DNA from: an uncultured virus (IMG/VR IMGVR_UViG_3300003410_000004)
Lineage: Duplodnaviria > Heunggongvirae > Uroviricota > Caudoviricetes
DNA length: 20,000 nucleotides
Virus record (IMG/VR): IMGVR_UViG_3300003410_000004
Reading direction: 5' to 3' (one strand)
The notes beneath the pieces were generated by a model. The model saw nothing but the letters and a program-made list of their open reading frames with translations, was not told the origin of the DNA and did not search any database. The first letter of the stretch is position 1, and every line of letters starts with the position of its first letter. Shown here in pieces: positions 1 to 20,000 of the stretch. The position numbers and the translations under genes are program-made.

Positions 1-282
1 TTAGAACTCGTGGAGAAGAATGATCAGGAAATATACGGTATGATCGAACAGACAAAAAGAGAAAACGATAAAGACTATGTTCAACTAGAGAATCGTATCC
101 AAGAGTCTCATGAAATCCTGTTAGGCGAAATCAAGCAACTTCATAATGAGATGAAGAACCATCACGAATTAGTATCGTCACGTTTGAGTAAATTGGAACA
201 ATGGCGTTGGATTCTCGTAGGTGGTGCTATTGTTTTAGGTTTCGTAATTTCCAAAATCCCTCTAGAAATTATTTTTCAATAA
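1..282 (+). CDS. Partial (5'-truncated) coiled-coil protein with a C-terminal transmembrane helix (XhlA/holin-like architecture)
   Basis: Frame open from base 1 to TAA at 280-282; heptad-like E/K/L-rich body followed by LSKLEQWRWILVGGAIVLGFVIS hydrophobic segment. Confidence 0.6.
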   Translation, partial: LELVEKNDQEIYGMIEQTKRENDKDYVQLENRIQESHEILLGEIKQLHNEMKNHHELVSSRLSKLEQWRWILVGGAIVLGFVISKIPLEIIFQ

Positions 283-287
283 TTGCC

Positions 288-316
288 TTGACAAATGTGT
301 AACAACAGTGTAATAT
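288..316 (+). promoter_or_regulatory. Sigma70-type promoter upstream of primase
   Basis: TTGACA 288-293, 17-bp spacer, TAATAT 311-316 preceded by TG. Confidence 0.75.
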
Positions 317-325
317 TACACTGTT
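304..325. repeat. Perfect 22-bp palindrome overlapping the -10 box (operator-like)
   Basis: AACAGTGTAATATTACACTGTT equals its own reverse complement; followed by self-complementary TAATTAATTA (325-334). Confidence 0.9.
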
Positions 326-344
326 AATTAATTATGGGTATAGT

Positions 345-1376
345 ATGTCATTTCAAACTGATCTGTCGTTCATGCACGACATATCGCACCGTCTTGTGCG
401 ATTCACTAAGAAGAAAGACAACCTCTATAACTTCCGCTGTCCGTATTGTGGAGACTCTAAGAAGTCTAAGATCAAAGCGAGAGCATTCCTGTATCGTAAG
501 AAAAACGACATGTACTTCAGGTGTCACAACTGTGGTCAATCAACCACGTTTGGGAACTTTCTAAAGTATATCGATGCGGAGAAGTACAAAGAGTATGTAC
601 TTGAGCGATACAAGAATGGAGAGTCTCAGAACCCATCTGCGAAGGTGTCAGTAGCATCTAAAGAAGTTAAAGACGTAACCTACCAGAAAGTGCGTATGCC
701 TACCAGAGACGCTCTCAGTAGTCAGAGAACGATATCTAGTCTACCAGAGACGCACCCTGCTCGTAAGTATGTCGAGAATCGACTGATTGACATTAAGTAC
801 TTTGACGACTTATACTTCATCCCAAAATTCTACAAATTCCTTGACAAAATTGACCAGTTGGGTTATAAGTATAATGAGGAAACCGATCATCCTCGTTTGG
901 TGATTCCATTCCGTGATAAGCATGGTACTCTACTTGGATTTCAAGGTAGAGCATTCGGTGAGGAGAAACCTAAGTATCTGACTACAATGATTGCGCAAGC
1001 ACCAAAGATATTTGGGTTTGATCGCCTCAACTTCAATGAGATAGTCTATATCTTAGAAGGTCCTATTGATGCGATGTTCGTTCCCAACTCACTCGCAATG
1101 GCAGGTGCAGATACTGACCTGTCAGGAGAACAGTTTGTCTTTGTGTATGACAATGAACCTCGATCCAAAGAGATCGTCAATCGTCTACAGAAACGTATTG
1201 ACAATGGTGATAAGGTTGTGATATGGTCTGACACCATCAAACAAAAAGATATGAACGACATGCGTAAAGCAGGTGTGTTCACTGATGCACAGGGTGCAAA
1301 AACTCTTATAGATAACAATACCTATCAAGGTTTGATTGCTAAAGCAAAATTAGCGGAATGGAAAAGATGCGAATAG
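345..1376 (+). CDS. gp61: T4-like DNA primase (gp61 family)
   Basis: N-terminal zinc-binding motifs NFRCPYCGDS...FRCHNCG; RLVIPF...GFQGRAF; TOPRIM motifs EGPIDAMF, YDNEPR, KDMND. Confidence 0.96.
   Translation: MSFQTDLSFMHDISHRLVRFTKKKDNLYNFRCPYCGDSKKSKIKARAFLYRKKNDMYFRCHNCGQSTTFGNFLKYIDAEKYKEYVLERYKNGESQNPSAKVSVASKEVKDVTYQKVRMPTRDALSSQRTISSLPETHPARKYVENRLIDIKYFDDLYFIPKFYKFLDKIDQLGYKYNEETDHPRLVIPFRDKHGTLLGFQGRAFGEEKPKYLTTMIAQAPKIFGFDRLNFNEIVYILEGPIDAMFVPNSLAMAGADTDLSGEQFVFVYDNEPRSKEIVNRLQKRIDNGDKVVIWSDTIKQKDMNDMRKAGVFTDAQGAKTLIDNNTYQGLIAKAKLAEWKRCE
680..753 (+). repeat. Direct repeats within the primase linker
   Basis: CTACCAGAGACGC at 700-712 and 741-753; core CTACCAGA also at 680-687. Confidence 0.8.
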
Positions 1377-1855
1377 ATGTAGTAGATAATGAAGTACCCC
1401 TTGAGTTAATCGGTGATCTTCAAGTACTTTTACCTAAACTAAGTTGGAAGGTTGAGTATGACTTATATAACAATATGCGTGTTCGTAGTGGTTTGTCTGC
1501 GGATTTGTCAGGTTCTTGGATAGATCGTTTCGGCAATGTTGCTGAAAAGTTTCTAACTGATGATGATTTACAGATATCCAGAGCATATATAAACCTGTTC
1601 GCTCCAAATGAAGTCTGCTATCCTCACGTTGATGGATGTCATACTACTGTATTATTCTACTGTAATTTTAATACTAGGATGGAACAGTGTGGAGAGACAG
1701 TATTTTTTGATGAACGTGGTGAAATTATAAAATCAGTTTTACCAAAAATGGGTAGAATGGTCTTGTTTGATGGGAATATTTTGCACAGCGCAAGACCTCT
1801 CAATAATGACTATAGATATAGCGTAGCACTAAAAATGGTGAAAAATAATGATTGA
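1367..1855 (+). CDS. 2OG-Fe(II) oxygenase (prolyl-hydroxylase-like phage family); alternative start at 1358
   Basis: RAYINL...YPHVDG (HxD), TTVLFY, GETVFFD, PKMGRMVLFDGNILHSARP (distal His), RYSVALK (2OG-binding Arg). Confidence 0.9.
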   Translation: MRIDVVDNEVPLELIGDLQVLLPKLSWKVEYDLYNNMRVRSGLSADLSGSWIDRFGNVAEKFLTDDDLQISRAYINLFAPNEVCYPHVDGCHTTVLFYCNFNTRMEQCGETVFFDERGEIIKSVLPKMGRMVLFDGNILHSARPLNNDYRYSVALKMVKNND

Positions 1856-2327: not shown

Positions 2328-2344
2328 TTTAATCGGAGTAATAA

Positions 2345-4642
2345 ATGACAACCATCGATAATCTTTTCGTGGTGAAGTCTGGTGGACGTAAAGAAGAACT
2401 AGACATCGAGAAAATCCAGAAGATGACACAAGAAGCGTGTGTCGGTTTGTCTGGAGTATCATCATCACAAGTAGAGATGAATTCTGGAATCCAATTTTAT
2501 GATGGAATTCCAACAGAAGATATTCAGAAAATTCTAATCAAGTCAGCGGCAGACCTCATTACACTTGAGAACCCTAACTATCAATACGTTGCCGCTAGAC
2601 TTCTTGCATTCTCTTTGCGTAAGCAGGTGTATGGTCAGTATGACCCAATCCCACTGAAAGAGATTGTTGAGTGGAATATCAAGCGTGGTGTCTATGATAA
2701 AGATTTGTTGTCATATTACGATGATGAAGAGTGGACTAAACTCGATGGTATGATGGATCATGATCGTGATCTGCAGTTCACTTATGCAGGTTTACAGCAG
2801 GTAGTAGACAAGTACCTAGTACAAGATCGTTCCTCTGGAGACATCTACGAAACCCCACAGGTGATGTATATGTTGATCTCTGCGACTATCTTTGCACAGT
2901 ATCCAAGAGATAAGCGTATGCAGTATGTACGCAGATACTACAATGCTATCAGTCAGTTCAAGTTGAACATTCCCACACCAGTAATGGCAGGGGTTCGTAC
3001 ACCAATCCGGCAGTTTGCGTCATGTGTACTCGTTGACGTAGACGACACATTGGATAGTATCTTCCACAGTAACAGTGCTGTTGGATACTACATTGCACAA
3101 CGTGCAGGTATTGGATTGAACGTTGGTCGTATCCGCGCAATCAAATCAAAGATTCGTGGTGGAGAGGTAGAACACACTGGTGTGATTCCATTCCTCAAGA
3201 TGTATGAAGCGACTGTTCGTTCATGTACTCAGAACGGTGTGCGTGGTGGTTCTGCTACAACTCACTTCCCATTCTGGCACAAAGAGATTGAAGATGTAAT
3301 CGTACTGAAGAACAACAAGGGTTCAGAAGACAACCGTGTTCGTAAACTCGACTACTCTATTCAGTTGTCCAAGTTGTTCTATGAGCGTTTCCTGAAGAAT
3401 GAAGATATCTCATTGTTCTCACCTCATGATGTGCCTGGACTCTACGATGCTTTTGGTTACCCAGAGTTCGATGAACTGTACACCAAGTATGAGAATGATC
3501 CTCGTATCGACAAGAAGACTATCAATGCTCGTGAGTTGGGTATTGATATCCTGAAGGAACGTGCAGAAACTGGTCGTATCTACTTAATGAATATGGATCA
3601 TGTTAACTCTCATAGTTCGTTCAAAGACAAGGTGAGTATGTCTAACCTATGTCAAGAGATCACACTACCAACCACACCAATCAGCAATGTTGATGGAACT
3701 GATGGCGAAATTGCACTTTGCATCTTGTCAGCAGTGAACGTAGGTGGTATAAGTAACACTGACGAATTGCAGAATCTTTGTGATCTTGCAGTTCGCGCAC
3801 TAGACGAATTGATTGACTATCAAGGGTATCCTATCCCTGCCGCAGAGAAATCTACGAAAGCGAGACGTTCACTTGGTATTGGTTACATTGGTCTAGCACA
3901 CTACCTAGCGAAAAATAAAGTCAAGTACGATGATCCAGAAGCGTGGAAACTCGTAGATGAACTTACAGAGTCGTTCCAGTACTTCTTGCTCAAAGCGTCT
4001 GTAGACGTAGCGAAAGAGAAAGGTAAGTGTGAGGCGTTTGAAAGAACTAAATATGCAGACGGTATCTTACCAATCGACACATATAAGTCGGATGTTGACG
4101 ATATCGTAACTCCAAACTACAAGCGTGATTGGGAAGAACTACGTTCCGAAATTCAGGAACATGGTTTGCGTCACTCTACACTATCCGCACAGATGCCATC
4201 TGAATCTTCTTCAGTGGTCTGTGGTGAAACAAATGGTATTGAACCCCCTCGTGACTACTTGTCCGTGAAGAAGTCAAAGAAGGGAACACTCAAGCAGATC
4301 GTGCCTGGATACCATACTTTTAAGAATCACTATACATTGCTATGGGATATGAAATCCAATGAGGGTTACATCAAGGTGGTTGCAGTGATGCAGAAATACT
4401 TTGACCAAGCAATCTCTGGTAACTGGTCTTACAATCCAGAGAACTATCCAGATAATGAAGTACCAGTGTCAGTAATGGCACAAGATTTTCTTAATACTTA
4501 CAAATACGGTTGGAAGACATCATACTATCAAAATACTTACGACAGTAAGAAAGATGATGATATCGAGGAGACTCCAACTGAACAACCATTAGAAGCATTA
4601 CCAGACGATGACGGTGAAGTCTGTGATGCCTGTGCAATTTAA
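2345..4642 (+). CDS. nrdA: Ribonucleotide reductase class Ia, alpha subunit
   Basis: N-terminal ATP cone; RQFASC, SNLCQEI, EIALCILS catalytic Cys/Asn/Glu; TSYYQN tyrosine pair; C-terminal CDAC; uninterrupted 765 aa; GGAG RBS. Confidence 0.98.
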   Translation: MTTIDNLFVVKSGGRKEELDIEKIQKMTQEACVGLSGVSSSQVEMNSGIQFYDGIPTEDIQKILIKSAADLITLENPNYQYVAARLLAFSLRKQVYGQYDPIPLKEIVEWNIKRGVYDKDLLSYYDDEEWTKLDGMMDHDRDLQFTYAGLQQVVDKYLVQDRSSGDIYETPQVMYMLISATIFAQYPRDKRMQYVRRYYNAISQFKLNIPTPVMAGVRTPIRQFASCVLVDVDDTLDSIFHSNSAVGYYIAQRAGIGLNVGRIRAIKSKIRGGEVEHTGVIPFLKMYEATVRSCTQNGVRGGSATTHFPFWHKEIEDVIVLKNNKGSEDNRVRKLDYSIQLSKLFYERFLKNEDISLFSPHDVPGLYDAFGYPEFDELYTKYENDPRIDKKTINARELGIDILKERAETGRIYLMNMDHVNSHSSFKDKVSMSNLCQEITLPTTPISNVDGTDGEIALCILSAVNVGGISNTDELQNLCDLAVRALDELIDYQGYPIPAAEKSTKARRSLGIGYIGLAHYLAKNKVKYDDPEAWKLVDELTESFQYFLLKASVDVAKEKGKCEAFERTKYADGILPIDTYKSDVDDIVTPNYKRDWEELRSEIQEHGLRHSTLSAQMPSESSSVVCGETNGIEPPRDYLSVKKSKKGTLKQIVPGYHTFKNHYTLLWDMKSNEGYIKVVAVMQKYFDQAISGNWSYNPENYPDNEVPVSVMAQDFLNTYKYGWKTSYYQNTYDSKKDDDIEETPTEQPLEALPDDDGEVCDACAI

Positions 4643-4654
4643 GGAAGGGACTAA

Positions 4655-5755
4655 GTGACAAGCGTATTCAACAAAAATGTAGTTGACTACAAGAAGCAAC
4701 CGATGTTTTTCGGTGAAGATCAGCAGATGCAAAGATACGATGAATTCAAGTATCCTATCTTTGATAAGTTGACGCAGAAACAGTTGGGATTCTTCTGGCG
4801 TCCAGAAGAGGTGTCGGTGCAGAAAGATCGCTCCGACTACCAACAGTTGCGTCCAGAGCAGAAGCATATCTTTACCTCTAACCTCAAGTATCAGATTCTT
4901 TTGGATTCGGTACAGGGTAGAGGTCCTGCTCTTGCATTCTTACCATTCTGTTCGATTCCAGAGTTGGAAGGTTGTATTCTTGCGTGGGATTTCATGGAGA
5001 CTATCCATAGTCGTTCATATACCTACATGATCAAGAATCTATATCCAAACCCAAGTGATGTGTTCGATCACGTTATCGATGATGAACGTATCATGGAACG
5101 TGCAGACTCGATCACTAAAGCATACGATGACTTCATCGACTATGCGAATCGATACAAACTAACAGGTGAAGGTAACAGCAAGGAACTCAAGCGTAAGTTG
5201 TGGAGAGCATTGGTAACGGTAAACATCCTTGAGGGTATCCGTTTCTATGTGTCATTTGCCTGTACTTTCGCATTCGGTGAGTTGAAAATGATGGAAGGTT
5301 CTGCTAAGATCATTTCTTTCATTGCTCGTGATGAGTCTCAGCACCTTGCTATTACTCAGCACATCATCAAAGCATATCAGAAGAATGAAAATGACGTTGA
5401 GATGCTTGAAGTGATGCAGGAAGAAGAAGAGTGGATGTACCAAGCATATAAAGATGCTGTTGATGAAGAGAAGCGATGGGCAGAGTATCTGTTCAAAGAT
5501 GGATCAATGATTGGTCTGAATGAAAAACTTCTTGGTGATTATGTTGAGTGGATTGCTAACAAGCGTATGCGAGCAATCGGTTTAAAGGAAATATTCGACA
5601 TCAAGCGTAATGATAACCCACTACCTTGGACACAACATTGGTTGAACTCAGGTGGGTTGCAGAATGCACCACAAGAAACTGAGATTGAATCTTACATTAT
5701 TGGTGGTATCAAGCAAGACTTGACTGACGATACACTGAAAGGGTTTTCACTGTAA
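4655..5755 (+). CDS. nrdB: Ribonucleotide reductase class Ia, beta subunit
   Basis: FFWRPEE, LLDSVQ, ETIHSRSY (radical Tyr), LEGIRFY, RDESQH di-iron ligands; APQETEIESY tail; GTG start after AGGAAGG. Confidence 0.98.
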   Translation: MTSVFNKNVVDYKKQPMFFGEDQQMQRYDEFKYPIFDKLTQKQLGFFWRPEEVSVQKDRSDYQQLRPEQKHIFTSNLKYQILLDSVQGRGPALAFLPFCSIPELEGCILAWDFMETIHSRSYTYMIKNLYPNPSDVFDHVIDDERIMERADSITKAYDDFIDYANRYKLTGEGNSKELKRKLWRALVTVNILEGIRFYVSFACTFAFGELKMMEGSAKIISFIARDESQHLAITQHIIKAYQKNENDVEMLEVMQEEEEWMYQAYKDAVDEEKRWAEYLFKDGSMIGLNEKLLGDYVEWIANKRMRAIGLKEIFDIKRNDNPLPWTQHWLNSGGLQNAPQETEIESYIIGGIKQDLTDDTLKGFSL

Positions 5756-5913
5756 TGCCTACTAATAACTATACCTGCAGTGACTGTGAAGCATACTTTG
5801 CAGTCACTCATAAACAAGATGAAGAATTCTTTACTGTCAACATGTGTCCGTTCTGCGGTGCTGAAGTAGAGATGGATGAAGACTTTGAAGAAATTGAGGA
5901 AGATGATGAGTGA
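5755..5913 (+). CDS. Small zinc-ribbon protein (FmdB-like, CxxC...CPxCG) with acidic tail; absent from the ORF track
   Basis: Hand translation MPTNNYTCSDCEAYFAVTHKQDEEFFTVNMCPFCGAEVEMDEDFEEIEEDDE* (52 aa); TAATG overlap with the nrdB stop. Confidence 0.85.
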   Translation: MPTNNYTCSDCEAYFAVTHKQDEEFFTVNMCPFCGAEVEMDEDFEEIEEDDE

Positions 5914-6310
5914 AGTTGATCTAAATGCATATAAAGACTTTGTACAAGCAGTGACCAGTACAGAGTCGAATGAGTTGGATGCGATGGTATCGCGTCTTGG
6001 TGAGTTGAATGAAAAAGTGAATATTCCCCTGCTGATGACAGGTGCTATTGGAATCTCTGCAGAAGGAGGCGAGTTTGTTGAAATCGTTAAGAAGTGTGTT
6101 TTCCAAGGAAAACCTATGGATGATGATACCATATATCACGCAAAGCGAGAACTTGGCGATATTATGTGGTATTGGATTAACTCATGTCGTGCATTGGGTT
6201 TAGACCCCAATGAGGTGATCCAAGGTAACGTTGATAAGTTAATGTCACGTTACCCTGGCGGTCACTTTGATGTGTTCTACTCTGAGAACAGGGTAGAAGG
6301 CGACTTGTAA
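5906..6310 (+). CDS. mazG: MazG-like nucleotide pyrophosphohydrolase (start more likely 5903/5906 than 5876)
   Basis: AEGGEFVEIVKK and RELGDIMWY (ExxE...ExxD), NVDKLMSRYP; GAGGA RBS at 5896-5900. Confidence 0.9.
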   Translation: MSEVDLNAYKDFVQAVTSTESNELDAMVSRLGELNEKVNIPLLMTGAIGISAEGGEFVEIVKKCVFQGKPMDDDTIYHAKRELGDIMWYWINSCRALGLDPNEVIQGNVDKLMSRYPGGHFDVFYSENRVEGDL

Positions 6311-6855
6311 TGTATTATGCAGGGATTGACTACTCCCTAACGTCACCTGCAATCTGTTTAACGCGAGACTTCTCTGAACAGACTACTCGTTACTACTATC
6401 TTACTAATAAGAAGAAATATGACGGTAGGTTCATGGGCGGCACATGTCAGGGAAGTCTCGCGTTTCCCTATTCCTCTCAAGAAGAACGGTTCGACAACAT
6501 ATCGAATTGGGTAATGGCAGTATTGTCAGACTACGATGTAAAGCATGTGTTCATCGAAGATTATGCGATGGGTGCGAAAGGTCGAGTGTTCCATATCGGA
6601 GAAAACACTGGTTTATTGCAACATAAACTGTGGAAAGATAAATACTCATTCACGAAGATTGCTCCAACCGTAGTTAAGAAACATGCTACTGGTAAAGGAA
6701 ACGCAAAGAAAGAACAGATGTACGATGCGTGGATAGACCGATTTGGTGGTAATCTTATAGAAGAGTTTAGTCAGAACAAACTGGACAATCCAGTGACTGA
6801 CATTATCGATGCATTTTATATCGCGGAAACAGGCGCATGTTCATTGGAATCTTAA
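6310..6855 (+). CDS. RuvC-like / RNase H-fold nuclease (Holliday junction resolvase-like)
   Basis: GIDYS (Asp1), VFIEDY (Glu), PTVVKKHATGKGNAKKEQM, DIIDAFYIA (Asp pair) match RuvC motifs. Confidence 0.8.
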   Translation: MYYAGIDYSLTSPAICLTRDFSEQTTRYYYLTNKKKYDGRFMGGTCQGSLAFPYSSQEERFDNISNWVMAVLSDYDVKHVFIEDYAMGAKGRVFHIGENTGLLQHKLWKDKYSFTKIAPTVVKKHATGKGNAKKEQMYDAWIDRFGGNLIEEFSQNKLDNPVTDIIDAFYIAETGACSLES

Positions 6856-7889: not shown

Positions 7890-7921
7890 AAAACTTTGGC
7901 AATATAACAAAATAATCTAAG

Positions 7922-7957: not shown

Positions 7958-7988
7958 ATGAGGGTAAGTTGATGAGAGAGAAAAAATT

Positions 7989-12429: not shown

Positions 12430-12446
12430 TCTGGAGAACTTTAATA

Positions 12447-13089: not shown

Positions 13090-13093
13090 TGCT

Positions 13094-13681: not shown

Positions 13682-13696
13682 AGAGAACCTTATATT

Positions 13697-13888
13697 ATGA
13701 AAGTCAAAATTGAATTAGACCTCACCCCAGAAGAAGCAAAAGAACTATTCATACCGTCAGATAAGCAATCTGAATTCGGTATGATGTTATATAATGCATA
13801 CACAAAAGCAGTAACTGATACTGTTTGGCAACACGTTGATCCTCATAATTTTACAGGAATGAACAAAAATGCGCGTGAAGATCGGTAA
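13697..13888 (+). CDS. DUF6489-like small protein
   Basis: MKVKIELDLTPEEAKELF.P.D N-terminal signature. Confidence 0.6.
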   Translation: MKVKIELDLTPEEAKELFIPSDKQSEFGMMLYNAYTKAVTDTVWQHVDPHNFTGMNKNAREDR

Positions 13889-14474
13889 ATACCCAAGTCG
13901 ATTTACTTGTAGAATCCACACAAACTATATGAACGAAAAGTATAGTTTTTTGGATTGGACTGCAAAGCAGAATTGGTATGAGAACTTTCTTGAAAAAGTA
14001 GAAGACACTATCCAGTGGGTGTATGACCACACAGTCAACATAATCATTGACAACTTAAATCAGAAGGTCAACGTTCATATTGACCATTGGGATACTTGGT
14101 CAATGGATCATACCTTAGCACCTATCATCCTACCAATGCTCAAGCAATTGAGAGACAACAAACACGGTTCGCCGATGGTTGATGATGAAGATGTTCCAGA
14201 AGAACTGCGCAGTAAATTTGACCCATATTCCAGAACACCAGACTTATTTGCTGATACGATTGAGTATGATATAGCAGAAAAATGTCACGATGCTCTAATC
14301 CATGAGAAGTGGGATTGGGTTATGAATGAGATGATCTATGCGTTTAATTGTAAAGCGAATAAAGATGATGTGTATATGCGCATTGAAGATCAAGATGAAA
14401 TGAGAAAAGAACAAGAACGCATTTCAAATGGATTCCGTCTGTTCGGTAAGTATTACGAAGGGTTGTGGGATTAA
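13869..14474 (+). CDS. Conserved hypothetical phage protein
   Basis: IDHWDTWSMDHTLAPIILPMLKQL, WDWVMNEMIYAF, RISNGFRLFGKYYEGLWD. Confidence 0.8.
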   Translation: MRVKIGKYPSRFTCRIHTNYMNEKYSFLDWTAKQNWYENFLEKVEDTIQWVYDHTVNIIIDNLNQKVNVHIDHWDTWSMDHTLAPIILPMLKQLRDNKHGSPMVDDEDVPEELRSKFDPYSRTPDLFADTIEYDIAEKCHDALIHEKWDWVMNEMIYAFNCKANKDDVYMRIEDQDEMRKEQERISNGFRLFGKYYEGLWD

Positions 14475-14677
14475 TGAAGTGGTTAGACCTCATCACAAAG
14501 ACTCCTGAACAGCGCATGATCGAGAATCTTGAAGCGCAGATGCTAAGTGGTATAGAAACCATGAAGGGTGCGCAAGAAACTATCGAATTTCAATCAAAAA
14601 CCATCGCTGAATTAACACTACATATCCTAGAATTACAACGAAAAATTAAGGAACTTCAGGATGACCAAGATAGTTGA
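14474..14677 (+). CDS. Small coiled-coil protein
   Basis: TAATG coupling at 14472-14476; heptad pattern. Confidence 0.65.
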   Translation: MKWLDLITKTPEQRMIENLEAQMLSGIETMKGAQETIEFQSKTIAELTLHILELQRKIKELQDDQDS

Positions 14678-15035
14678 CTTGTCAACACGCCGTAATAATA
14701 CCCCTGAGACGCCCTCAGACGCCCTACAAGACGCGAACTACGATAAGGTGGATGAACTCCAGTACTCGTGGGGAAAAGTCTTTATGGACATGCTAGATGA
14801 AGCGGAAATCGGAGACAATTCTGAGGAATTCTGGAGAATCTACGCACTATTTGGAGAGACATTCCGCGCACTACTTTGCTATGACCAAAATTTACAACAT
14901 CCATTCCATGATCTCGCTGAGAAAATGATTGATGTTGAGTTTGAGAATGATGATGCAATCATCTATTATAAAGATGTACACCTATATGTGAGTGAGTTCC
15001 CCCTAATCGATGAAGACGGCAATACATCTATTTGA
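14661..15035 (+). CDS. Hypothetical acidic protein
   Basis: 124 aa, AAGGA RBS. Confidence 0.7.
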   Translation: MTKIVDLSTRRNNTPETPSDALQDANYDKVDELQYSWGKVFMDMLDEAEIGDNSEEFWRIYALFGETFRALLCYDQNLQHPFHDLAEKMIDVEFENDDAIIYYKDVHLYVSEFPLIDEDGNTSI

Positions 15036-15627
15036 TCTCAATGACACACTATGTGAGTATTGGGAGAAAGAATTACATGATGACACCAAAGAGTGGTTGA
15101 TCAACTTCTCTAAAAAGCATCCAATCAGCATAATCTCAGGGGGTTCTGTACAGAGTATCCTTACTAAGATAGGTGATGTGAAGCATCACTGTGGTATGGT
15201 TCTTGGATACTCTGGTATGGAAGTCATGACTGCTAATGACTACGTTGCACCAAAGCAGATTGAGTTTCCTAACGATCTCATTGAGTATATTCTTGACTGG
15301 CACGAAGGTGTTGAGGTTACAGAGAATACTACTACCCTCTATATCCCCAAAATCAAAGGGGAAACACGCAAGAAACTGGTGAAAGACCTAAATAACGATT
15401 TCCCAGAGTTCGATACCGTCTACGACAACAGAGACTACGGTATCACTGTTCAAGCATTCAATAAGTCTTTCGCACTACCCTACTTCAAGACTCGCGTGGT
15501 GTTTTACACTGACGGTACAAATCGATACACATTCGATAACCAAGCGTGTAAAGCGTTCAAGAGAGCAGGACATACGATAGTTCCTGTCAATGAACCTTGC
15601 GACTTCATTAGAAAAATACAATCATAA
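15010..15627 (+). CDS. Degenerate HAD-superfamily (phosphomannomutase-like, class IIB) protein
   Basis: IHLFDLNDTL (motif I, DxN), ISIISGG (II), FNKSFAL (III Lys), VFYTDG....D (IV), ending VPVNEPCD. Confidence 0.55.
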   Translation: MKTAIHLFDLNDTLCEYWEKELHDDTKEWLINFSKKHPISIISGGSVQSILTKIGDVKHHCGMVLGYSGMEVMTANDYVAPKQIEFPNDLIEYILDWHEGVEVTENTTTLYIPKIKGETRKKLVKDLNNDFPEFDTVYDNRDYGITVQAFNKSFALPYFKTRVVFYTDGTNRYTFDNQACKAFKRAGHTIVPVNEPCDFIRKIQS

Positions 15628-15632
15628 AAGTG

Positions 15633-15660
15633 TTGACCTTTCCGATCATTGTGGTATTAT
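15633..15660 (+). promoter_or_regulatory. Sigma70-type promoter with extended -10
   Basis: AAAAGTG-TTGACC 15633-15638, 16 bp, TGG-TATTAT 15655-15660. Confidence 0.65.
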
Positions 15661-15686
15661 TACTATGTTGATTGAGAGAGGTTTTT

Positions 15687-15788
15687 ATGGAATACACACA
15701 AAATTACTACGATGTGATTCTTCTTGGTGGCGTATTGGTCGCCGCTGTTGTTTATCTTGCAATGAAAGGTAATTTGAGAAAGTGGTAA
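15687..15788 (+). CDS. Small single-TM peptide; absent from the ORF track
   Basis: MEYTQNYYDVILLGGVLVAAVVYLAMKGNLRKW* (33 aa), GAGAGG RBS, first ORF after the promoter. Confidence 0.65.
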   Translation: MEYTQNYYDVILLGGVLVAAVVYLAMKGNLRKW

Positions 15789-15925
15789 AATTGCACACCA
15801 AGACAATGATTATATGGGATGACTTGTTCGTCCAGTTATACGTTGGTGGTCAAGATAAGTGGAACATTCTTCCTGAGTGGGAGAATCGCGTCAAGAAGAT
15901 GAAGAAATATAAAGGTGAATTATGA
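15782..15925 (+). CDS. Small hypothetical protein (start GTG 15782 or ATG 15806)
   Basis: ...MIIWDDLFVQLYVGGQDKWNILPEWENRVKKMKKYKGEL*; ATGA overlap with the next gene. Confidence 0.45.
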   Translation: MVKLHTKTMIIWDDLFVQLYVGGQDKWNILPEWENRVKKMKKYKGEL

Positions 15926-16125
15926 TTGATATGCTGAAAGAGATCACTGGTACAGTTGGTGAATTCCGTTACCCTGAGAATGTCTACTATGTGCGTGGTG
16001 ATCGTCTAGTAGCATTCTACCCTGAAGGTAACCCTGATGGGTTTGTCATCTATAAGAAACCTATGCGTTTCAGTAAAAAAGGTCGTAAGTTTGAAACACT
16101 CGCGAAAGGATTAAAATCATTATGA
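15922..16125 (+). CDS. Hypothetical protein
   Basis: AGGTG RBS; LKEIT...YKKPMRFSKKGRKF. Confidence 0.7.
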   Translation: MIDMLKEITGTVGEFRYPENVYYVRGDRLVAFYPEGNPDGFVIYKKPMRFSKKGRKFETLAKGLKSL

Positions 16126-16526
16126 CAGAGAACACGCCACTAGAAGAACAGTTGGATGAATCAACTCAACAGCGATATAAGAACTCTGCTATGTCCAAAG
16201 CAGGTAAACTTGCGATGGAACTTGCACAAGAGCGTAAGCGTCTACGTCAAGAACTAGAAGAACTCCAAGCAGAAGCGGATGATCTGCGTCCTACTACGCC
16301 TACTGGTACAGTCGATTGGTACGTTAAGTGGGCGGCAATGTTCCTAACAGTGTTTGGGGTGTTCTTCATGTCTGCTAACCAGATTATGTTTGGTCAGATT
16401 GCATACATCATCAGTTCAGTTGGTTGGGTGTTTGTTGGTATGCAGTGGTCAGACAGAGCGATTATGATTGGTAGTGCGATTACAGGTACTGCAGTTGCTA
16501 TGAATTTGATGGGTAGTTTGGTATGA
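16122..16526 (+). CDS. Coiled coil fused to a DUF6552-like three-helix membrane domain
   Basis: QERKRLRQELEELQ coil, then DWYVKW, GWVFVGMQWSDRAIM TM segments. Confidence 0.65.
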   Translation: MTENTPLEEQLDESTQQRYKNSAMSKAGKLAMELAQERKRLRQELEELQAEADDLRPTTPTGTVDWYVKWAAMFLTVFGVFFMSANQIMFGQIAYIISSVGWVFVGMQWSDRAIMIGSAITGTAVAMNLMGSLV

Positions 16527-16708
16527 ACGTAGAAGTTCCTAACTCTAAGATACCCACAAAGGTTTTGATTGATGAATTATATGATCGTGTAGATGATCAG
16601 TTGTACGCACCAGAAAAGCGAGCAGACGACTATATGGAATGTCTCAGCAATGGACAGAAAGAACTCCTACATGATTTACTAGAAGCGATAAGGAAGAGAT
16701 GCGGATGA
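16523..16708 (+). CDS. Hypothetical protein
   Basis: ATGA overlap; 61 aa. Confidence 0.6.
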   Translation: MNVEVPNSKIPTKVLIDELYDRVDDQLYAPEKRADDYMECLSNGQKELLHDLLEAIRKRCG

Positions 16709-16887
16709 AATGTATAAATTTAATTATTGCCATACTTGTGTCACTGAATGTGATAGGATATGCAAGTTATTTAAGAATCACTGAAGGTAGTGCAGGTTTT
16801 CTGTCTACTCTTGGAGCAATCGTTGCTATGTTCATTATCGGTGTTTCTGTGACTGAATTTGGTAGAATGACTAGGAGATCAAGATGA
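16699..16887 (+). CDS. Small two-TM membrane protein
   Basis: INLIIAILVSLNVIGY and FLSTLGAIVAMFIIGVSV; basic tail. Confidence 0.6.
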   Translation: MRMKCINLIIAILVSLNVIGYASYLRITEGSAGFLSTLGAIVAMFIIGVSVTEFGRMTRRSR

Positions 16888-17261
16888 GTAAATTTGTAAT
16901 GGTTGATACCATATCAATGTTCCGTATGCGGTATGTGGTAGAAGTTCCAGATGATGTGGGTGAAGAGATGTACTTNAAAGATGGCACACGATCATTCCCC
17001 TGCACACCAGAAGAGTATGCGAAAGATACCGTAACATGTGGAGATGTGCGTGAGTTCTCACAGGAACATCTCGATGAGGTGATTTCATCTTGTCGTGAGG
17101 TGACCAAGGAAGAAGCAGTCGCACAATGGCGTCAGGATAATAGTTCATTTAGTTCTTGGAGTGATGATTTTATCACAAAATCAGCGATTACTGAGGTTGA
17201 TTTCAGTATAAATGAATATTATGAAGAAGAAGAGCGCAGATGGCACCAAAGCGGTGAATAA
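16884..17261 (+). CDS. Hypothetical phage protein
   Basis: AGGAG RBS; VMVDTISMFRMRYVVEV, EFSQEHLDEVI. Confidence 0.75.
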   Translation: MSKFVMVDTISMFRMRYVVEVPDDVGEEMYXKDGTRSFPCTPEEYAKDTVTCGDVREFSQEHLDEVISSCREVTKEEAVAQWRQDNSSFSSWSDDFITKSAITEVDFSINEYYEEEERRWHQSGE

Positions 17262-17263
17262 AA

Positions 17264-17644
17264 ATGATAACCTATAGCACCAACATGATGGGTCCAGTAT
17301 CAATGGATTGGTATAGTAAACGAGGACTGACTAAAAAAGTTAGAGAAGTTCTCAAAGAAGGTCAAACGATTTATCCCAAAGGTCTTGGTGCAGGTGATGT
17401 ATGGGAATACGAGGAAGTCACCACATACTATGCAGGTGGGCGAATTGATATTCGNGGTGTNCCNGGCGACGATTATTGGAATGGTTGGCACGAGTATAGT
17501 GTAGCACCCATGCATGGTGAAGATTGGAATGCACTGGGGGATTATCTTTGGGACTTGACAACCGAAGAACTCTTACCGTATGATACACTCATAGAACAGT
17601 TTGAAACACATTACGGTAAACGGATAAGGTGGGCAGATGAGTGA
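17264..17644 (+). CDS. Hypothetical phage protein
   Basis: 126 aa; all three Ns fall at third codon positions. Confidence 0.75.
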   Translation: MITYSTNMMGPVSMDWYSKRGLTKKVREVLKEGQTIYPKGLGAGDVWEYEEVTTYYAGGRIDIXGXXGDDYWNGWHEYSVAPMHGEDWNALGDYLWDLTTEELLPYDTLIEQFETHYGKRIRWADE

Positions 17645-18233
17645 GAAATTAACAGAGAAAGAGATTGAAGAACTCCGTGTCAAGAAACAAGCAATCAAAG
17701 AAGAACTCTATGATGCTGTGAAAATGGAGATGTTCAAAGCAAGTTCTGAACTGGAAGGTATTGATATGGATGAAAAACAAGAAAAAGCATTAGACGGTCT
17801 TGCCAAGTTATCGCAACAAATGGAAGAGAGACGTATTCAACACGAGGAAGAAAATGATGCGTGGTGGGATGGTCTAACTGAGAAAGAACGAGAAGATGCG
17901 TTCTATGCCGTATGTAAGCGTATTCACCAAGCAGAGTTAATGGATCACGGCACTTATCGTCATGCTCTATATGATGTGTTTGGTTTTGATGGTGGTATGT
18001 ATATGCATGGTATGAACTGCGGTTTCATGGCAATTCATAATGCTATCGGTGATGGTGAAGAATATCAAGCAATGCGTGGCGTAAATCGTCTTGAGGTGAT
18101 TGATGAAAATGGTCGTGCATTGGTAAAATACCTTAAAAAATATGAAAAATTGCGGTATGAATTACAAGACGATAACCGAACACTAAAGATATTTGTAAAT
18201 AAAATTAATAGTGTTTTTACGGAGAACCTATGA
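17637..18233 (+). CDS. Hypothetical multi-module protein
   Basis: N-terminal coil, central YRHALYDVFGF module, C-terminal VNRLEVID...LQDDNRTLKIFV module. Confidence 0.75.
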   Translation: MSEKLTEKEIEELRVKKQAIKEELYDAVKMEMFKASSELEGIDMDEKQEKALDGLAKLSQQMEERRIQHEEENDAWWDGLTEKEREDAFYAVCKRIHQAELMDHGTYRHALYDVFGFDGGMYMHGMNCGFMAIHNAIGDGEEYQAMRGVNRLEVIDENGRALVKYLKKYEKLRYELQDDNRTLKIFVNKINSVFTENL

Positions 18234-18430
18234 CTAATTTTAGTGAATTGTTTGATGAGTTTCTTGACAACCATGCAGAAAAACTTGTTGTAGAGGAACT
18301 GAAAACCTACTACAAACTGACAGATGTAAATGATGAATCTGGTATCCGATGGGCGATTGACCGTGTGTTAAAAGACTACATGACAACCCAAGACTATGTT
18401 GAGTGGCGAAGGGAGAATGGTAAAGTATGA
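18230..18430 (+). CDS. Hypothetical protein
   Basis: GGAG RBS, ATGA overlaps. Confidence 0.7.
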   Translation: MTNFSELFDEFLDNHAEKLVVEELKTYYKLTDVNDESGIRWAIDRVLKDYMTTQDYVEWRRENGKV

Positions 18431-18756
18431 TTGATGAAACAATGCAGATACCTGCAGAACAAGGTATCACACCAGACTCATGGGTGATTATCGAAGTCAA
18501 CCATGAGGGTAAACAGTTTCAGAAGATCATCTCTGGTTGGTCTGGTGGATACCTTGATGGTGATGCGTGGCGACTATCGAGTCCCATCAAGAGAATGAAA
18601 ATTAGTTTAGATAAAGACTACTTTACGGTTGACACAGAGTCAGGTTCGTTCTATACTTTATATAAAGATCGTCAAGGGTTGCGAATGAGTAACGCAGGAA
18701 TTTACAACCAACTTAAAGAACAATTTGGTGATGCTATAGAGATCATTACATTATGA
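18427..18756 (+). CDS. Conserved hypothetical phage protein
   Basis: PDSWVII...GWSGGYLDGDAWRLSS...TESGSFY motif. Confidence 0.75.
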   Translation: MIDETMQIPAEQGITPDSWVIIEVNHEGKQFQKIISGWSGGYLDGDAWRLSSPIKRMKISLDKDYFTVDTESGSFYTLYKDRQGLRMSNAGIYNQLKEQFGDAIEIITL

Positions 18757-19172
18757 ACATTAAACACGCGCCTATATTCAACACAGAAGAAGTATGTAAA
18801 CGCTATTCAGAGAAAGATGGTATAGAAGTAACCTATGTTTGTACAACTGACCTTGTTGCTTCTGATGTGCCTGTAGACGTATTCTTTCGTGAGACTCCAC
18901 ATCCTCAATTTGGTAACCGCTACTTTGGTTTGTACTACGATCATATTCGTGACCATGTGATGATTACCAATGCTGATATGGTGGAAGAACTGCAATTTGG
19001 TATGATCAATGATAAGGATGACCAATGGTGGTACTCAGCGAGTCATCATGATTGCATCTTTGTTGATGAAGGTAATAAGATGATTGACGGTGGAAGAGTA
19101 TACATTCGTAGTAGTGGTGGTGCTACCGTGTTTAGAGTGAAAGATGGACAGTTTGTCAAAGAGGCAGAATGA
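18753..19172 (+). CDS. Hypothetical phage protein
   Basis: PHPQFGNRYFGL, YSASHHD, IDGGRVYIR. Confidence 0.75.
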   Translation: MNIKHAPIFNTEEVCKRYSEKDGIEVTYVCTTDLVASDVPVDVFFRETPHPQFGNRYFGLYYDHIRDHVMITNADMVEELQFGMINDKDDQWWYSASHHDCIFVDEGNKMIDGGRVYIRSSGGATVFRVKDGQFVKEAE

Positions 19173-19396
19173 TGTTAGAAGTACTATTGGTGTTCGCAAT
19201 GAACGGTGGGTTGGCAAATGTCTCAGATAGGGTATTTACTTCCTATGGAGAATGTGCTATCTTTGTTAATGAGTTAGTGAAAAAAGATGTCGTCAACAGC
19301 GACTACGGTTTCATGTTCTATTCTGATGACGGTGACANGTTCGTAGGACAATGCATCGAGAAATCAGAATGGGAACGTTATATAAGTCCGAAATGA
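19169..19396 (+). CDS. Small protein with hydrophobic N-terminus (possibly exported)
   Basis: GAGG RBS; MMLEVLLVFAM; two Cys. Confidence 0.6.
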   Translation: MMLEVLLVFAMNGGLANVSDRVFTSYGECAIFVNELVKKDVVNSDYGFMFYSDDGDXFVGQCIEKSEWERYISPK

Positions 19397-19405
19397 GGTA
19401 ATATC

Positions 19406-19615
19406 ATGTGTGGTGGAGTATATGAAGAAGATTTTAAATATCTTAAAAGCAATGCTCCAAGGAAGGACAACGAAGTTTCCAAGAAGGAAGAACAAATGCG
19501 TATGGAATCTAGAAACCGAAGGGTGATGGGTGACATCAAGTTCATGACTGCAGGAGACTTTATGTCTGAACAAGATGATCCTTATGTCACGTTAGGGAGT
19601 GATCCACAAGAATGA
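19406..19615 (+). CDS. Hypothetical protein
   Basis: GAGGT RBS; 69 aa. Confidence 0.6.
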   Translation: MCGGVYEEDFKYLKSNAPRKDNEVSKKEEQMRMESRNRRVMGDIKFMTAGDFMSEQDDPYVTLGSDPQE

Positions 19616-19875
19616 ATAGAAGAGAAGAACTGCTAACTATCCTCGCAGAAGAATGCGCAGAAGTCATTGTAGAGTGTAGCAAGATCAAACGATTCGGTGA
19701 GTCATCCGTCTATGAGGGAGAAACTGCTATGGATCGTCTGGAGAAAGAACTTGGTGATCTGTACTGCATGATCGACTTGCTACATGGAGAAGACATGATC
19801 TCATACACCAAGTTGGATGAGTACGCAAACAAGAAACACGAAAAACTTAGACAATGGAGTAACCTATTCTCATGA
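19612..19875 (+). CDS. Second, short MazG-like NTP pyrophosphohydrolase
   Basis: ILAEECAEVI..CSK..RFG and LEKELGDL (ExxE...ExxD). Confidence 0.8.
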   Translation: MNRREELLTILAEECAEVIVECSKIKRFGESSVYEGETAMDRLEKELGDLYCMIDLLHGEDMISYTKLDEYANKKHEKLRQWSNLFS

Positions 19876-20000
19876 TTACATTAAAGCAAACCACACCTGA
19901 TGATTGCTATGAGTATACAGCAGTTCGCGAAGTCACTATGACTCTCACATCAGAAGCGTCTCTCACTGAGATGCTAGACGCATTTGGACAATTCCTGAGA
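19872..20000 (+). CDS. Partial (3'-truncated) hypothetical protein
   Basis: MITLKQTTPDDCYEYTAVREVTMTLTSEASLTEMLDAFGQFLR..., open to the window end; ATGA overlap. Confidence 0.65.
   Translation, partial: MITLKQTTPDDCYEYTAVREVTMTLTSEASLTEMLDAFGQFLR

What the first reader, a model, noticed from the sequence alone, without database searches (positions are those of the whole stretch)
1..20000. Apparent complete absence of RGCY (AGCT, AGCC, GGCT, GGCC) across 20 kb
Seen: reading every GC dinucleotide by eye, each GCT or GCC was preceded by T or C, and each AGC or GGC was followed by A or G. I found no RGCY, in core genes or accessory ORFs. If G+C is about 40% and bases are independent, about 200 would be expected. 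Established: RGCY is the CviJI target and contains the AluI and HaeIII sites; phages purge host restriction sites, and 5mC sites can erode by deamination. Inference: total loss of such a degenerate motif points to a strong, long-acting RGCY-directed restriction, methylation or sensing system shared across the host range. That system may be uncharacterised, and the motif gap could serve as a host-prediction signature.
Basis: partly seen in the sequence, partly recalled or inferred. Interest (0 to 1): 0.85.

Follow-up and report, generated by a model that had tools for sequence, protein, structure and literature searches.

The report
Marine phage genome purged of RGCY
This piece of an uncultured marine T4-like phage has been rewritten, codon by codon, so that the four-letter DNA word RGCY never occurs, which is the footprint of a DNA-cutting enzyme that has not yet been identified.

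Summary
The window holds 0 RGCY. About 198 are expected from base composition, 57 from a second-order Markov model, and 79 +/- 7 from 1000 synonymous-codon shuffles (minimum 60).

- **How it is achieved:** absolute codon-context rules, plus one amino-acid change. A conserved Trp-Pro in the primase is Trp-Ser here.
- **Extent:** the purge covers non-coding DNA and lineage-specific genes. It also holds in a 103-kb contig of the sister lineage: 0 AGCT/AGCC/GGCT against 472 expected.
- **Relatives:** 6 of 6 cultured cyanomyoviruses are 2- to 7-fold depleted.
- **Not depleted:** T4-like phages of Aeromonas, Vibrio and Acinetobacter; cyanopodoviruses and a cyanosiphovirus; and picocyanobacterial DNA, which over-represents RGCY at 1.1-1.7 times expectation.
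- **Published methylomes (Hiraoka 2022):** RGCY is the commonest methylated motif of marine myoviruses. By my calculation from their tables, those genomes hold RGCY at only 0.10-0.23 of expectation.

Best reading: selection against an endonuclease that cuts unmethylated RGCY. This lineage is the end-point, with no sites left. I did not find the nuclease. A host-encoded enzyme is slightly more likely than a phage-encoded one. Deamination erosion and artefact are rejected.

This scan has noted RGCY purges before on other DNA. My literature searches found no published account.

The parts
1..20000 (.). Whole window: zero RGCY (AGCT, AGCC, GGCT, GGCC) on both strands, in coding and non-coding DNA
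345..1376 (+). gp61-type DNA primase gene; 0 RGCY
   Evidence: PHROG phrog_47 DNA primase, E 4e-79; 40-49% identity to the primases of G002 and six cyanomyoviruses
1224..1229 (+). Trp-Ser (TGGTCT) where G002, S-SSM4 and MED4-213 have Trp-Pro (TGGCCA or TGGCCT). Trp-Pro is the only dipeptide that forces an RGCY, and here it has been replaced
   Evidence: Codon alignment; coordinates; Trp-Pro occurs 0 times in 5,615 residues against 2.9 expected
2345..4642 (+). nrdA (ribonucleotide reductase large subunit); 0 RGCY, against 2-5 in three cyanomyovirus orthologues
4655..5755 (+). nrdB (small subunit); 0 RGCY
5876..6855 (+). MazG-like pyrophosphatase and RuvC-like resolvase genes; 0 RGCY
11569..12429 (+). 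T4 RNase H-type 5'-3' exonuclease gene; 0 RGCY
13869..19875 (+). Ten ORFs with no relative in G002, 12 cultured phage loci or 77 IMG/VR loci. These lineage-specific genes are equally free of RGCY
   Evidence: tblastn; counts
3007..3010 (.). The only readable CCGG in the window (32 expected). A second one is masked by N at 17461-17466

Best explanation
The window comes from a lineage of marine T4-like myoviruses, sister to the cultured cyanomyoviruses (Kyanoviridae), that has eliminated every RGCY from its DNA. It did so under selection by an endonuclease that recognises unmethylated double-stranded RGCY, the specificity of chlorovirus R.CviJI. Related myoviruses take the same route part of the way: they hold RGCY at 0.1-0.6 of expectation, and published methylomes show that they methylate what is left. 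With no sites left, this lineage would need no RGCY methylase; none is seen in the roughly 25 kb held. Shown here: the purge, its codon-level mechanics, its spread over the tree, the contrast with hosts and with other phages, and the coupling of depletion with methylation in published data. Inferred: that the agent is a nuclease, and where it is encoded. My preferred version is that it is host-encoded and carried by a minority of strains, as the NgoMIV-type system found here is. Broad-host-range myoviruses would then sum that pressure over many strains.
For: Statistics: 0 observed against 198, 57 and 79 +/- 7 expected; 0 against 29.6 in non-coding DNA. Strand symmetry: AGCC and GGCT are both 0, so the target is duplex DNA and not RNA. 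Codon rules are absolute. Ala after a codon ending in a purine is GCY in 0 of 100 cases, against 77 of 194 after a pyrimidine (Fisher p = 2e-17). AGC is followed by a purine in 16 of 16 cases, and GGC in 19 of 19. Lys/Glu/Gln before a CTN leucine end in A in 47 of 47 cases. Where they end in G, the leucine is TTR in 25 of 25. Trp-Leu is TTR in 4 of 4. An amino acid was changed: conserved Trp-Pro became Trp-Ser in the primase. Antiquity: the sister contig G002 (77% NrdA identity, 102,947 bases) has 0 AGCT/AGCC/GGCT against 472 +/- 16 from a synonymous shuffle, and 4 of its 11 coding GGCC are forced Trp-Pro. The two form a clade with support 97. Relatives: 6 of 6 cultured cyanomyoviruses lie at 0.14-0.57. 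Other restriction-type words are purged in lineage-specific sets, as restriction avoidance predicts: CCGG is 1 of 32 here and 0 in 5 of 6 cyanomyoviruses; CGCG is 0 of 51 in G002. Hosts do carry rare type II systems. An NgoMIV-family nuclease (CCGG core) sits beside an N4-type methylase in 2 of the 12 host loci examined, out of 301 genomes searched. That methylase is 41% identical to the S-SSM4 phage methylase. SinI- and EcoO109I-type nucleases lie beside C5 methylases. Published methylomes: RGCY is the commonest methylated motif of marine viral genomes (9 V-MAGs; passages and Data S2). The eight RGCY-methylating genomes for which I retrieved length and G+C hold RGCY at 0.10-0.23 of expectation by my calculation. 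Not an artefact: three further studies' marine metagenomes hold 35-43% of the window's words, and cultured phage genomes show the depletion too.
Against: No RGCY nuclease or RGCY methylase was identified in the window, in G002 or in any host genome. To my recollection, the only RGCY enzymes on record are from chloroviruses. Hosts of the cultured relatives do not look like carriers. Picocyanobacterial loci over-represent RGCY (29 Prochlorococcus-labelled loci at 1.32-1.70; 14 Synechococcus/Cyanobium loci at 1.07-1.49). C5 methylases occur in 37 of 301 genomes, and N6/N4 methylases in 65 of 301. All 5 cyanobacterial bins of Hiraoka 2022 had 0 methylated motifs, although m5C is poorly seen by that method. 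P-SSP7, Syn5 and P-SS2, which infect the same host genera, are at 1.29-1.37. This is weak evidence against a host enzyme, because those phages are not purged of CCGG either (0.43-0.72), and a host nuclease for CCGG does exist. The host of the window's own clade is unknown: no psbA or hli was found in 103 kb of G002.
Confidence: 0.75

Rival explanations
1. The RGCY nuclease is encoded by the myoviruses themselves, or by co-infecting relatives, as in chloroviruses. It would shred the RGCY-rich host chromosome for nucleotides or attack rival phages. The phage would be immune through site loss plus methylation, and the window's lineage would be immune by absence alone.
For: The depletion follows a phage lineage and not a host. 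Myoviruses are depleted, while podoviruses and a siphovirus of the same host genera are not. Hiraoka 2022 likewise finds methylation confined to Myoviridae and Phycodnaviridae, and states that host defence systems do not account for it (section 20). Host DNA is 1.1-1.7 times enriched in RGCY while the phage has none, which is an ideal self/non-self marker. Cyanomyoviruses do carry nuclease-methylase pairs: Syn33_057, annotated as a restriction endonuclease, overlaps a methylase gene and has relatives in 40 phage records, including P-HM2. The only RGCY nucleases I can recall are viral (CviJI family).
Against: No candidate gene was found. The Syn33 pair has a DPPY (adenine-type) methylase, so it is not RGCY-directed, and it has no relative in the window or G002. 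S-PM2 and S-CAM1 keep 21-30% of their RGCY but have no PF01555 or PF00145 methylase, so they would cut themselves. That argument is weakened by V24, a Bellamyvirus with modified RGCY and 0 recognised methylase genes. The graded depletion across the tree (0 to 1.1) fits a variable outside pressure better than an all-or-none self-immunity. CCGG shows the same myovirus-only purge, and a host nuclease does exist for it.
Confidence: 0.25
2. Mutational erosion: an RGCY cytosine methylase, phage or host, methylated these sites for a long time, and methylcytosine deamination removed them without selection.
For: RGCY is methylated in related phages. The one amino-acid change seen (CCN to TCT) is a C-to-T change.
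Against: Zero of about 80-200 sites here and zero of about 470 in G002 cannot be a mutational equilibrium. The deamination products RGTY and RACY are not enriched (0.96 and 1.19, against 1.06 and 1.10 in undepleted P-SSP7). The methylation reported is mostly m4C and not m5C. The codon-context rules have no exception at all.
Confidence: 0.03
3. Artefact of library construction, assembly or masking: RGCY sites lost or hidden in the record.
For: The window carries 5 N. CviJI has been used to make shotgun libraries (recalled, not from a call).
Against: The N are resolved by an identical contig and hide no RGCY. The reading frames are intact, and the missing sites are replaced by synonymous codons and not by gaps. 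Three other studies' metagenomes hold 35-43% of the window's sampled words, and their contigs laid across all 30 bins of positions 1-16975. A 103-kb relative and six cultured phage genomes show the same trend.
Confidence: 0.01

Closest known systems
Restriction-site avoidance in virulent phages (surveyed by Rusinov et al. 2018, PMC6286503, seen as search listing and abstract only). Classic cases recalled, not from any call: Staphylococcus phage K without GATC, Bacillus phages without GGCC
   Same: A short word recognised on duplex DNA is removed genome-wide by synonymous choices. Several restriction-type words are purged in lineage-specific sets. The purge is more complete in a virulent, broad-host-range phage type than in podoviruses or temperate-like phages.
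   Different: The word is degenerate and half of it is non-palindromic (AGCC/GGCT), so it is equivalent to only 3 bases, yet the purge is total over 20 kb. No cognate host enzyme is known. The hosts of the cultured relatives mostly lack cytosine methylases.
R.CviJI / M.CviJI of chlorovirus IL-3A
   Same: Identical recognition word. The system is virus-borne, with a virus that protects its own DNA. It is the only enzyme family I know of with this specificity.
   Different: CviJI belongs to a eukaryotic algal virus, protects by m5C, and does not purge its sites.
m4C RGCY methylation of marine Myoviridae-like viral genomes (Hiraoka et al. 2022, PMC8919816; read: passages, section 20, Data S1-S3 rows)
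   Same: Same motif, same habitat and same phage type. One of the genomes is a Bellamyvirus, which is a cyanomyovirus genus. By my calculation those genomes are also 4- to 10-fold depleted in RGCY.
   Different: Those phages keep and methylate 300-690 motif sequences each, whereas the window's lineage keeps none. In the passages I read, the authors do not remark on the depletion and leave the function of the methylation open.
Earlier notes of this scan on other DNA (e1-5883609, lake T4-like phage; e1-5999553, freshwater giant virus)
   Same: RGCY, and in the lake phage also CCGG, almost absent. GGCC survives where Trp-Pro forces it. The enzyme is unidentified.
   Different: Those are other genomes and habitats. 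Here even Trp-Pro is gone. I could add the host/podovirus contrast and the published methylome link. The lake-phage note says the habit is shared by phages of very different bacteria; three non-cyanophage T4-likes tested here are not depleted.

Membership tests
Restriction-site avoidance (anti-restriction by site elimination) | Word count far below composition-, Markov- and codon-aware nulls | tested here: met
   0 against 198, 57 and 78.9 +/- 6.6
Restriction-site avoidance (anti-restriction by site elimination) | Depletion symmetric on both strands and present in non-coding DNA, so the target is duplex DNA and not a codon or RNA signal | tested here: met
   AGCC and GGCT are both 0; non-coding DNA holds 0 against 29.6
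Restriction-site avoidance (anti-restriction by site elimination) | A cognate nuclease of that specificity exists in the hosts | tested here: inconclusive
   No RGCY enzyme was identified. Host-family genomes carry SinI-, EcoO109I- and NgoMIV-type nucleases in a minority. The host of the window's clade is unknown.
Restriction-site avoidance (anti-restriction by site elimination) | Other phages of the same hosts show the same avoidance | tested here: not met
   P-SSP7 1.29, Syn5 1.29, P-SS2 1.37. The same three are also not purged of CCGG, so the criterion is weak for these phage types.
Virus-encoded restriction-modification of the chlorovirus (CviJI) type | The virus encodes an RGCY endonuclease | tested here: not met
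   No nuclease or methylase family beyond replication and repair enzymes in 30 window ORFs (PHROGs, Pfam, PADLOC, NCBIfam). None in 115 of 121 G002 ORFs scanned, apart from an SNase-like protein. Only about 25 kb of the window's own genome is known, so absence is not shown.
Virus-encoded restriction-modification of the chlorovirus (CviJI) type | The virus protects its own RGCY by methylation | not testable with these tools
   There are no sites to methylate here. Relatives do methylate RGCY, according to Hiraoka 2022 Data S2.
Kyanoviridae (T4-like cyanomyoviruses) | T4-type replication and structural core with closest similarity to cyanomyoviruses | tested here: met
   NrdA is 67-71% identical to cultured cyanomyoviruses and 42-46% to other T4-likes. 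G002 carries gp23, gp20, gp18, gp43 and UvsX, among others.
Kyanoviridae (T4-like cyanomyoviruses) | Photosynthesis genes (psbA, hli) that mark a cyanobacterial host | tested here: not met
   No PF00124 or PF00504 match in G002 (103 kb, 57% complete) or in the contigs of the window's phage. The clade branches outside the cultured cyanomyoviruses. The records are fragments, so the host stays open.

The most novel reading that the evidence does not exclude
The ocean's dominant T4-like myoviruses run a chlorovirus-style system. A phage-borne nuclease of CviJI-like RGCY specificity, in a family not yet recognised, shreds the RGCY-rich host chromosome or rival phages. The phages stay immune by stripping RGCY from their own DNA and methylating the remainder. 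The window's lineage would be the first case of complete immunity by absence, needing no RGCY methylase. That would explain why RGCY is the leading methylated motif of marine viruses, a function the authors of that survey could not assign.
Probability: 0.25. Interest if true: 0.85.

Novelty: new variant of a known kind. Interest (0 to 1): 0.62.

Why it matters
T4-like myoviruses are among the most abundant phages in the sea. A total purge of a word as short as RGCY, held across lineages that differ by 23% in NrdA, means that something RGCY-specific has cut DNA in these infections for a very long time. The published methylome survey found RGCY methylation to be the commonest viral mark and could not explain it. 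Depletion and methylation together point to one unidentified nuclease. To my knowledge, none of this specificity is known from bacteria or phages. Finding it would settle whether picocyanobacteria, or another host, have an unrecognised defence, or whether these phages use site-specific cleavage to tell host DNA from their own. The motif gap is also a simple sequence marker for this phage radiation in metagenomes, although not for a host.

Tried and rejected
- **Enzyme in the window:** PHROGs, Pfam, PADLOC and NCBIfam scans gave no methylase or restriction nuclease. ESM Atlas look-ups of two unassigned ORFs (10080-10844 and 17637-18233) gave nothing usable: best score 0.88 with a poor model for the first, no hit for the second.
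- **The 'restriction endonuclease' Syn33_057:** no Pfam family, no match to a solved structure, no relative in the window, G002 or the other loci held. Its partner methylase is adenine-type.
- **S-SSM4 N4-type methylase:** no relative in the 80 IMG/VR loci, the window or G002.
- **Ongoing-selection test:** contigs from four other marine metagenome runs were laid on positions 1-16975. Of the 40 listed variant positions, 0 create RGCY against 1.26 expected, so the test has no power. A further 759 variants were not shown.
- **Window's own genome:** not held. A 30-base exact search of viral contigs found nothing.
- **RGCY as a search pattern over whole records:** I fetched the DNA and counted in scripts instead.
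- **Maximum-likelihood tree:** did not finish in time. The tree cited is FastTree with SH-like support only.
- **Methylome genome LC629478:** not in the phage collection.
- **Literature:** searches for RGCY or restriction-site avoidance in cyanophages found only Hiraoka 2022 and general surveys. Subscription journals are not covered.
- **tRNA genes:** often carry AGCT or GGCC in relatives. None in the window, L004 or G002.
- **Segment 7900-9100:** its high depth in the laid runs has no match among cultured phages.


Full report
**1.

The window has 40.4% G+C and 651 GC dinucleotides, yet AGCT, AGCC, GGCT and GGCC each occur 0 times. Base frequencies predict 198 sites and a second-order Markov model predicts 57.

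A stricter null shuffles synonymous codons within each of 30 reading frames. This keeps the protein sequences and the window's own, already adapted codon usage. It gives 78.9 +/- 6.6 sites, and none of 1000 shuffles falls below 60. The 3,332 non-coding bases hold 0 against 29.6 expected.

The five single N cannot hide a site. An identical public contig (G001) reads four of them, and none gives RGCY, although one hides a CCGG. The flanks of the fifth allow no GC.

**2. How the gap is written**

The rules have no exception:

| Context | Count |
|---|---|
| Ala written GCY after a codon ending in a purine | 0 of 100 |
| Ala written GCY after a codon ending in a pyrimidine | 77 of 194 (Fisher p = 2e-17) |
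| Ser AGC followed by a purine | 16 of 16 |
| Gly GGC followed by a purine | 19 of 19 |
| Lys/Glu/Gln before a CTN leucine, ending in A | 47 of 47 |
| Lys/Glu/Gln ending in G, leucine then written TTR | 25 of 25 |
| Lys/Glu/Gln before proline, ending in A | 16 of 16 |
| Trp-Leu written TGG TTR | 4 of 4 |

Trp-Pro is the only dipeptide that forces an RGCY (TGG CCN). It is absent from 5,615 residues, against 2.9 expected.

In the gp61 primase, G002, S-SSM4 and MED4-213 share a Trp-Pro that is Trp-Ser (TGGTCT, 1224-1229) in the window.

AGCC and its complement GGCT are both zero, so the constraint acts on duplex DNA and not on RNA or on one coding strand. The deamination products RGTY and RACY are not enriched: 0.96 and 1.19, against 1.06 and 1.10 in the undepleted P-SSP7.

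**3. What the DNA is**

All plausible genes lie on the + strand. They include:

- gp61 primase
- two 2OG-Fe(II) oxygenase-like proteins
- NrdA and NrdB
- MazG
- a RuvC-like resolvase
- glutaredoxin
- T4 RNase H
- many small ORFs without family

NrdA is 67-71% identical to cultured cyanomyoviruses, S-PM2 being the best, and 42-46% identical to T4-like phages of Aeromonas, Vibrio and Acinetobacter.

Three IMG/VR contigs (L004, L005 and G001) are identical to the window where they overlap (G001 but for the window's N positions). L004 adds 4,983 bases upstream, also without RGCY. Marine metagenomes from three further studies hold 35-43% of the window's sampled words.

In a FastTree NrdA tree, the window's phage is sister to G002 and L083 (support 97). 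That clade is sister to the cultured cyanomyoviruses plus a large group of contigs with about 33% G+C (SH-like support only; 69 of 94 candidate rows had 85% or more NrdA coverage and were used).

G002 (102,947 bases, 57% complete) carries the T4-type structural and replication core plus Hsp20, peptide deformylase, a CobS-like ATPase, tryptophan halogenase and carbamoyltransferase. I scanned 115 of its 121 ORFs, leaving out NrdA, NrdB and four ORFs that cross locus boundaries.

G002 has no psbA or hli and no tRNA genes. The host of this clade is therefore not established.

**4. Spread of the purge**

G002 has 0 AGCT, 0 AGCC, 0 GGCT and also 0 CGCG. A synonymous shuffle predicts 472 +/- 16 for the three RGCY words and 51 for CGCG.

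Twelve GGCC survive in G002. All are followed by a purine, and 11 of 12 are preceded by a pyrimidine. Of the 11 in ORFs, 4 are forced Trp-Pro and 7 are Ala GCC after a G-ending codon, three of them after Met ATG, one the start codon.

| Group | RGCY observed/expected |
|---|---|
| 80 IMG/VR loci around NrdA relatives | 0.00 to 1.33 |
| 55-row clade holding the window and the cyanomyoviruses | 0 to 1.1 |
| Rows outside that clade | 0.69 or above |
| S-SSM4 | 0.14 |
| Syn33 | 0.16 |
| MED4-213 | 0.17 |
| S-CAM1 | 0.21 |
| S-PM2 | 0.30 |
| ACG-2014f | 0.57 |
| Aeromonas PX29 | 0.83 |
| Acinetobacter fHyAci03 | 1.03 |
| Vibrio K388 | 1.18 |

The cultured-phage figures come from 26-42 kb samples around nrdA. 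In Syn33 the surviving sites cluster in the 2-kb bin that holds psbA and psbD (13 sites).

CCGG behaves alike. It occurs once in the window against 32 expected, and 0 times in five of the six cyanomyoviruses.

**5. Hosts and other phages of those hosts**

A psbA search returned 80 cyanobacterial loci.

- The 29 loci L094-L122 (28 labelled Prochlorococcus, one Synechococcaceae) have RGCY at 1.32-1.70 of expectation.
- The 14 loci labelled Synechococcus, Cyanobium or close kin have 1.07-1.49.
- I did not count the other 37 loci, which are other cyanobacteria plus one mislabelled bin.

Host DNA therefore goes the opposite way from the phages.

P-SSP7 (1.29), Syn5 (1.29) and the first 50 kb of P-SS2 (1.37) are not depleted. 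P-SSP7 and Syn5 are podoviruses; P-SS2 is a siphovirus.

| Gene family | Picocyanobacterial family genomes with a match |
|---|---|
| C5 methylase (PF00145) | 37 of 301; 0 of 5 genomes reached through named loci |
| N6/N4 methylase (PF01555) | 65 of 301 (56 above the cut-off) |

Some multi-hit bins in the PF01555 search probably carry phage contigs.

Next to the C5 methylases lie SinI-type and EcoO109I-type nucleases and a Vsr (18 of 20 ORFs scanned, two duplicates left out).

Two of the 12 best N6/N4 loci hold an NgoMIV-family nuclease, which has a CCGG core, beside an SPPY (N4-cytosine type) methylase. That methylase is 41% identical to the S-SSM4 phage methylase.

So a rare host system fits the CCGG purge. 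The podoviruses are not purged of CCGG either (0.43-0.72). The fact that they keep RGCY therefore says little against a host enzyme.

**6. Methylation**

I read Hiraoka et al. 2022 (PMC8919816) in passages, in section 20 and in rows of Data S1-S3.

- They report RGCY as the commonest methylated motif of marine viral genomes (9 V-MAGs), mostly m4C.
- Methylation is confined to Myoviridae-like and Phycodnaviridae genomes.
- The motifs are not shared with prokaryotic bins.
- The function is left open.

Their tables list 300-686 RGCY 'motif sequences' in genomes of 102-248 kb. All ten full-motif counts are even, as both-strand counting requires. Against a both-strand expectation, that is 0.10-0.23 for the eight genomes I could size.

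| Genome or bins | What the tables show |
|---|---|
| P113 (filed as prokaryotic) | 224 kb, 0% completeness; by my reading a phage |
| V24 (a Bellamyvirus) | modified RGCY, no recognised methylase gene |
| Five cyanobacterial bins | no methylated motif |
| Bins with AGCT m4C (six of nine looked up) | all six archaeal |

Among the cultured phages, PF01555 methylases are present in S-SSM4 and MED4-213 (SPPY type) and in Syn33 (DPPY type). They are absent from S-PM2, S-CAM1, ACG-2014f, P-SSP7, Syn5 and P-SS2. PF00145 is absent from the five records searched.

G002 has a 518-residue ORF with an SPPY methylase domain behind an unassigned N-terminal half.

**7. Reading**

The evidence points to selection by an agent that recognises, and most likely cuts, unmethylated RGCY:

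- total loss of the word
- symmetry on both strands
- perfect codon-context rules
- an amino-acid replacement
- persistence across deep divergence
- co-occurrence with other restriction-type purges
- pairing of depletion with methylation in relatives

I put 0.75 on that. Where the nuclease is encoded is open.

*For a host enzyme:* the graded depletion across the tree, and the precedent of CCGG with its NgoMIV-type host system.

*Against a host enzyme:* cytosine methylases are scarce in picocyanobacteria, and no RGCY methylation is seen in hosts.

*For a phage-borne enzyme of the chlorovirus type:* the restriction of the purge to one phage lineage, the RGCY-rich host DNA, and the existence of nuclease-methylase pairs in cyanomyoviruses (Syn33_057/058, in 40 records).

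*Against a phage-borne enzyme:* no candidate was found, and that pair is adenine-type.

Deamination erosion and artefact are rejected (sections 1 and 2).

**8. Novelty**

Restriction-site avoidance is textbook. New here:

- the word itself, RGCY, whose only known enzymes (as I recall) are chloroviral
- the completeness of the purge
- the habitat and the phage group
- the link to an unexplained published methylation

My seven literature searches found no account of RGCY depletion in cyanophages or marine myoviruses. Subscription journals are outside that library.

This scan has noted RGCY purges before on other DNA: a lake T4-like phage and a freshwater giant virus. Those are unchecked AI notes and not independent support.

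Noticed in passing
window 3007-3010 and 17461-17466; whole window: CCGG is almost absent too: 1 readable site plus 1 masked by N, against 32 expected. CCWGG and GGWCC occur 4 times each against about 19 expected. CCGG is 0 in 26-42 kb of five of six cultured cyanomyoviruses.
   Followed up: partly
G002 = L088-L093 (102,947 bases): The sister contig has a different purge set. CGCG is 0 (51 expected by codon shuffle). By base composition, GATC is 0.25 and CCGG 0.29 of expectation. The 12 surviving GGCC are all GGCCR and 11 of 12 are YGGCCR. This could mean that an overlapping methylated motif of the TGGCCA/YGGCCR type shields them.
   Followed up: partly
L090:11079-12635 (G002): A 518-residue ORF with a C-terminal SPPY (N4-cytosine type) methylase domain behind about 290 residues of no known family, in a genome almost free of RGCY. 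Its target is unknown.
   Followed up: partly
L192:2207-3611 (Syn33, GU071108.1 38206-39610): A gene annotated 'restriction endonuclease' (216 aa, no Pfam family, no match to a solved structure) overlaps a DPPY methylase gene. Relatives at 61-100% identity lie in 40 cultured cyanomyovirus records (Syn33, S-RIM12, S-MbCM100, ACG-2014a, P-HM2). This looks like a phage-borne restriction-modification pair of unknown specificity.
   Followed up: partly
L200:1348-3141 and L204:583-2442 (two host-family genomes, G+C 0.58-0.59): NgoMIV-family restriction nuclease beside an SPPY methylase that is 41% identical to the methylase of cyanophage S-SSM4. The phage methylase probably derives from, or counters, this kind of host system.
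   Followed up: partly
host-family genomes, e.g. G265:C1:367329-368483 and L199:1150-3390: Two recurrent long methylase ORFs in small (1.3-1.9 Mb) genomes. One is about 690-730 residues with a C5 methylase domain, at a similar chromosomal place in several genomes. The other is about 680-750 residues with a DPPF N6/N4 domain. Their partners and targets were not examined.
   Followed up: no
window 7925-9056: Contigs from four other marine runs pile up here at summed word depth up to 55-65, against about 4-8 on most bins outside nrdA/nrdB. The segment holds three small ORFs without family. It has no match among cultured phages, so it may be a widely shared small cassette.
   Followed up: partly
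window 13696-16508: In two runs of one study, contigs join 16508 back to 13696 with 16 other letters between (depth 100 and 31). This suggests relatives with a rearranged or duplicated accessory region.
   Followed up: no
Hiraoka 2022 Data S1, bins CM1_5m.P113 and CM1_5m.P15: Two bins filed as prokaryotic (224 kb and 209 kb, 0% completeness, 33% and 28% G+C, about 350 CDS each) look like large phage genomes. P113 carries the viral motif set RGCY, CCWGG, GATC and CATG.
   Followed up: no
L188 (P-SSP7): The podovirus P-SSP7 is depleted in GGCC alone (0.10), while AGCT is at 1.98. That is a different, HaeIII-type avoidance in a phage of Prochlorococcus MED4.
   Followed up: no
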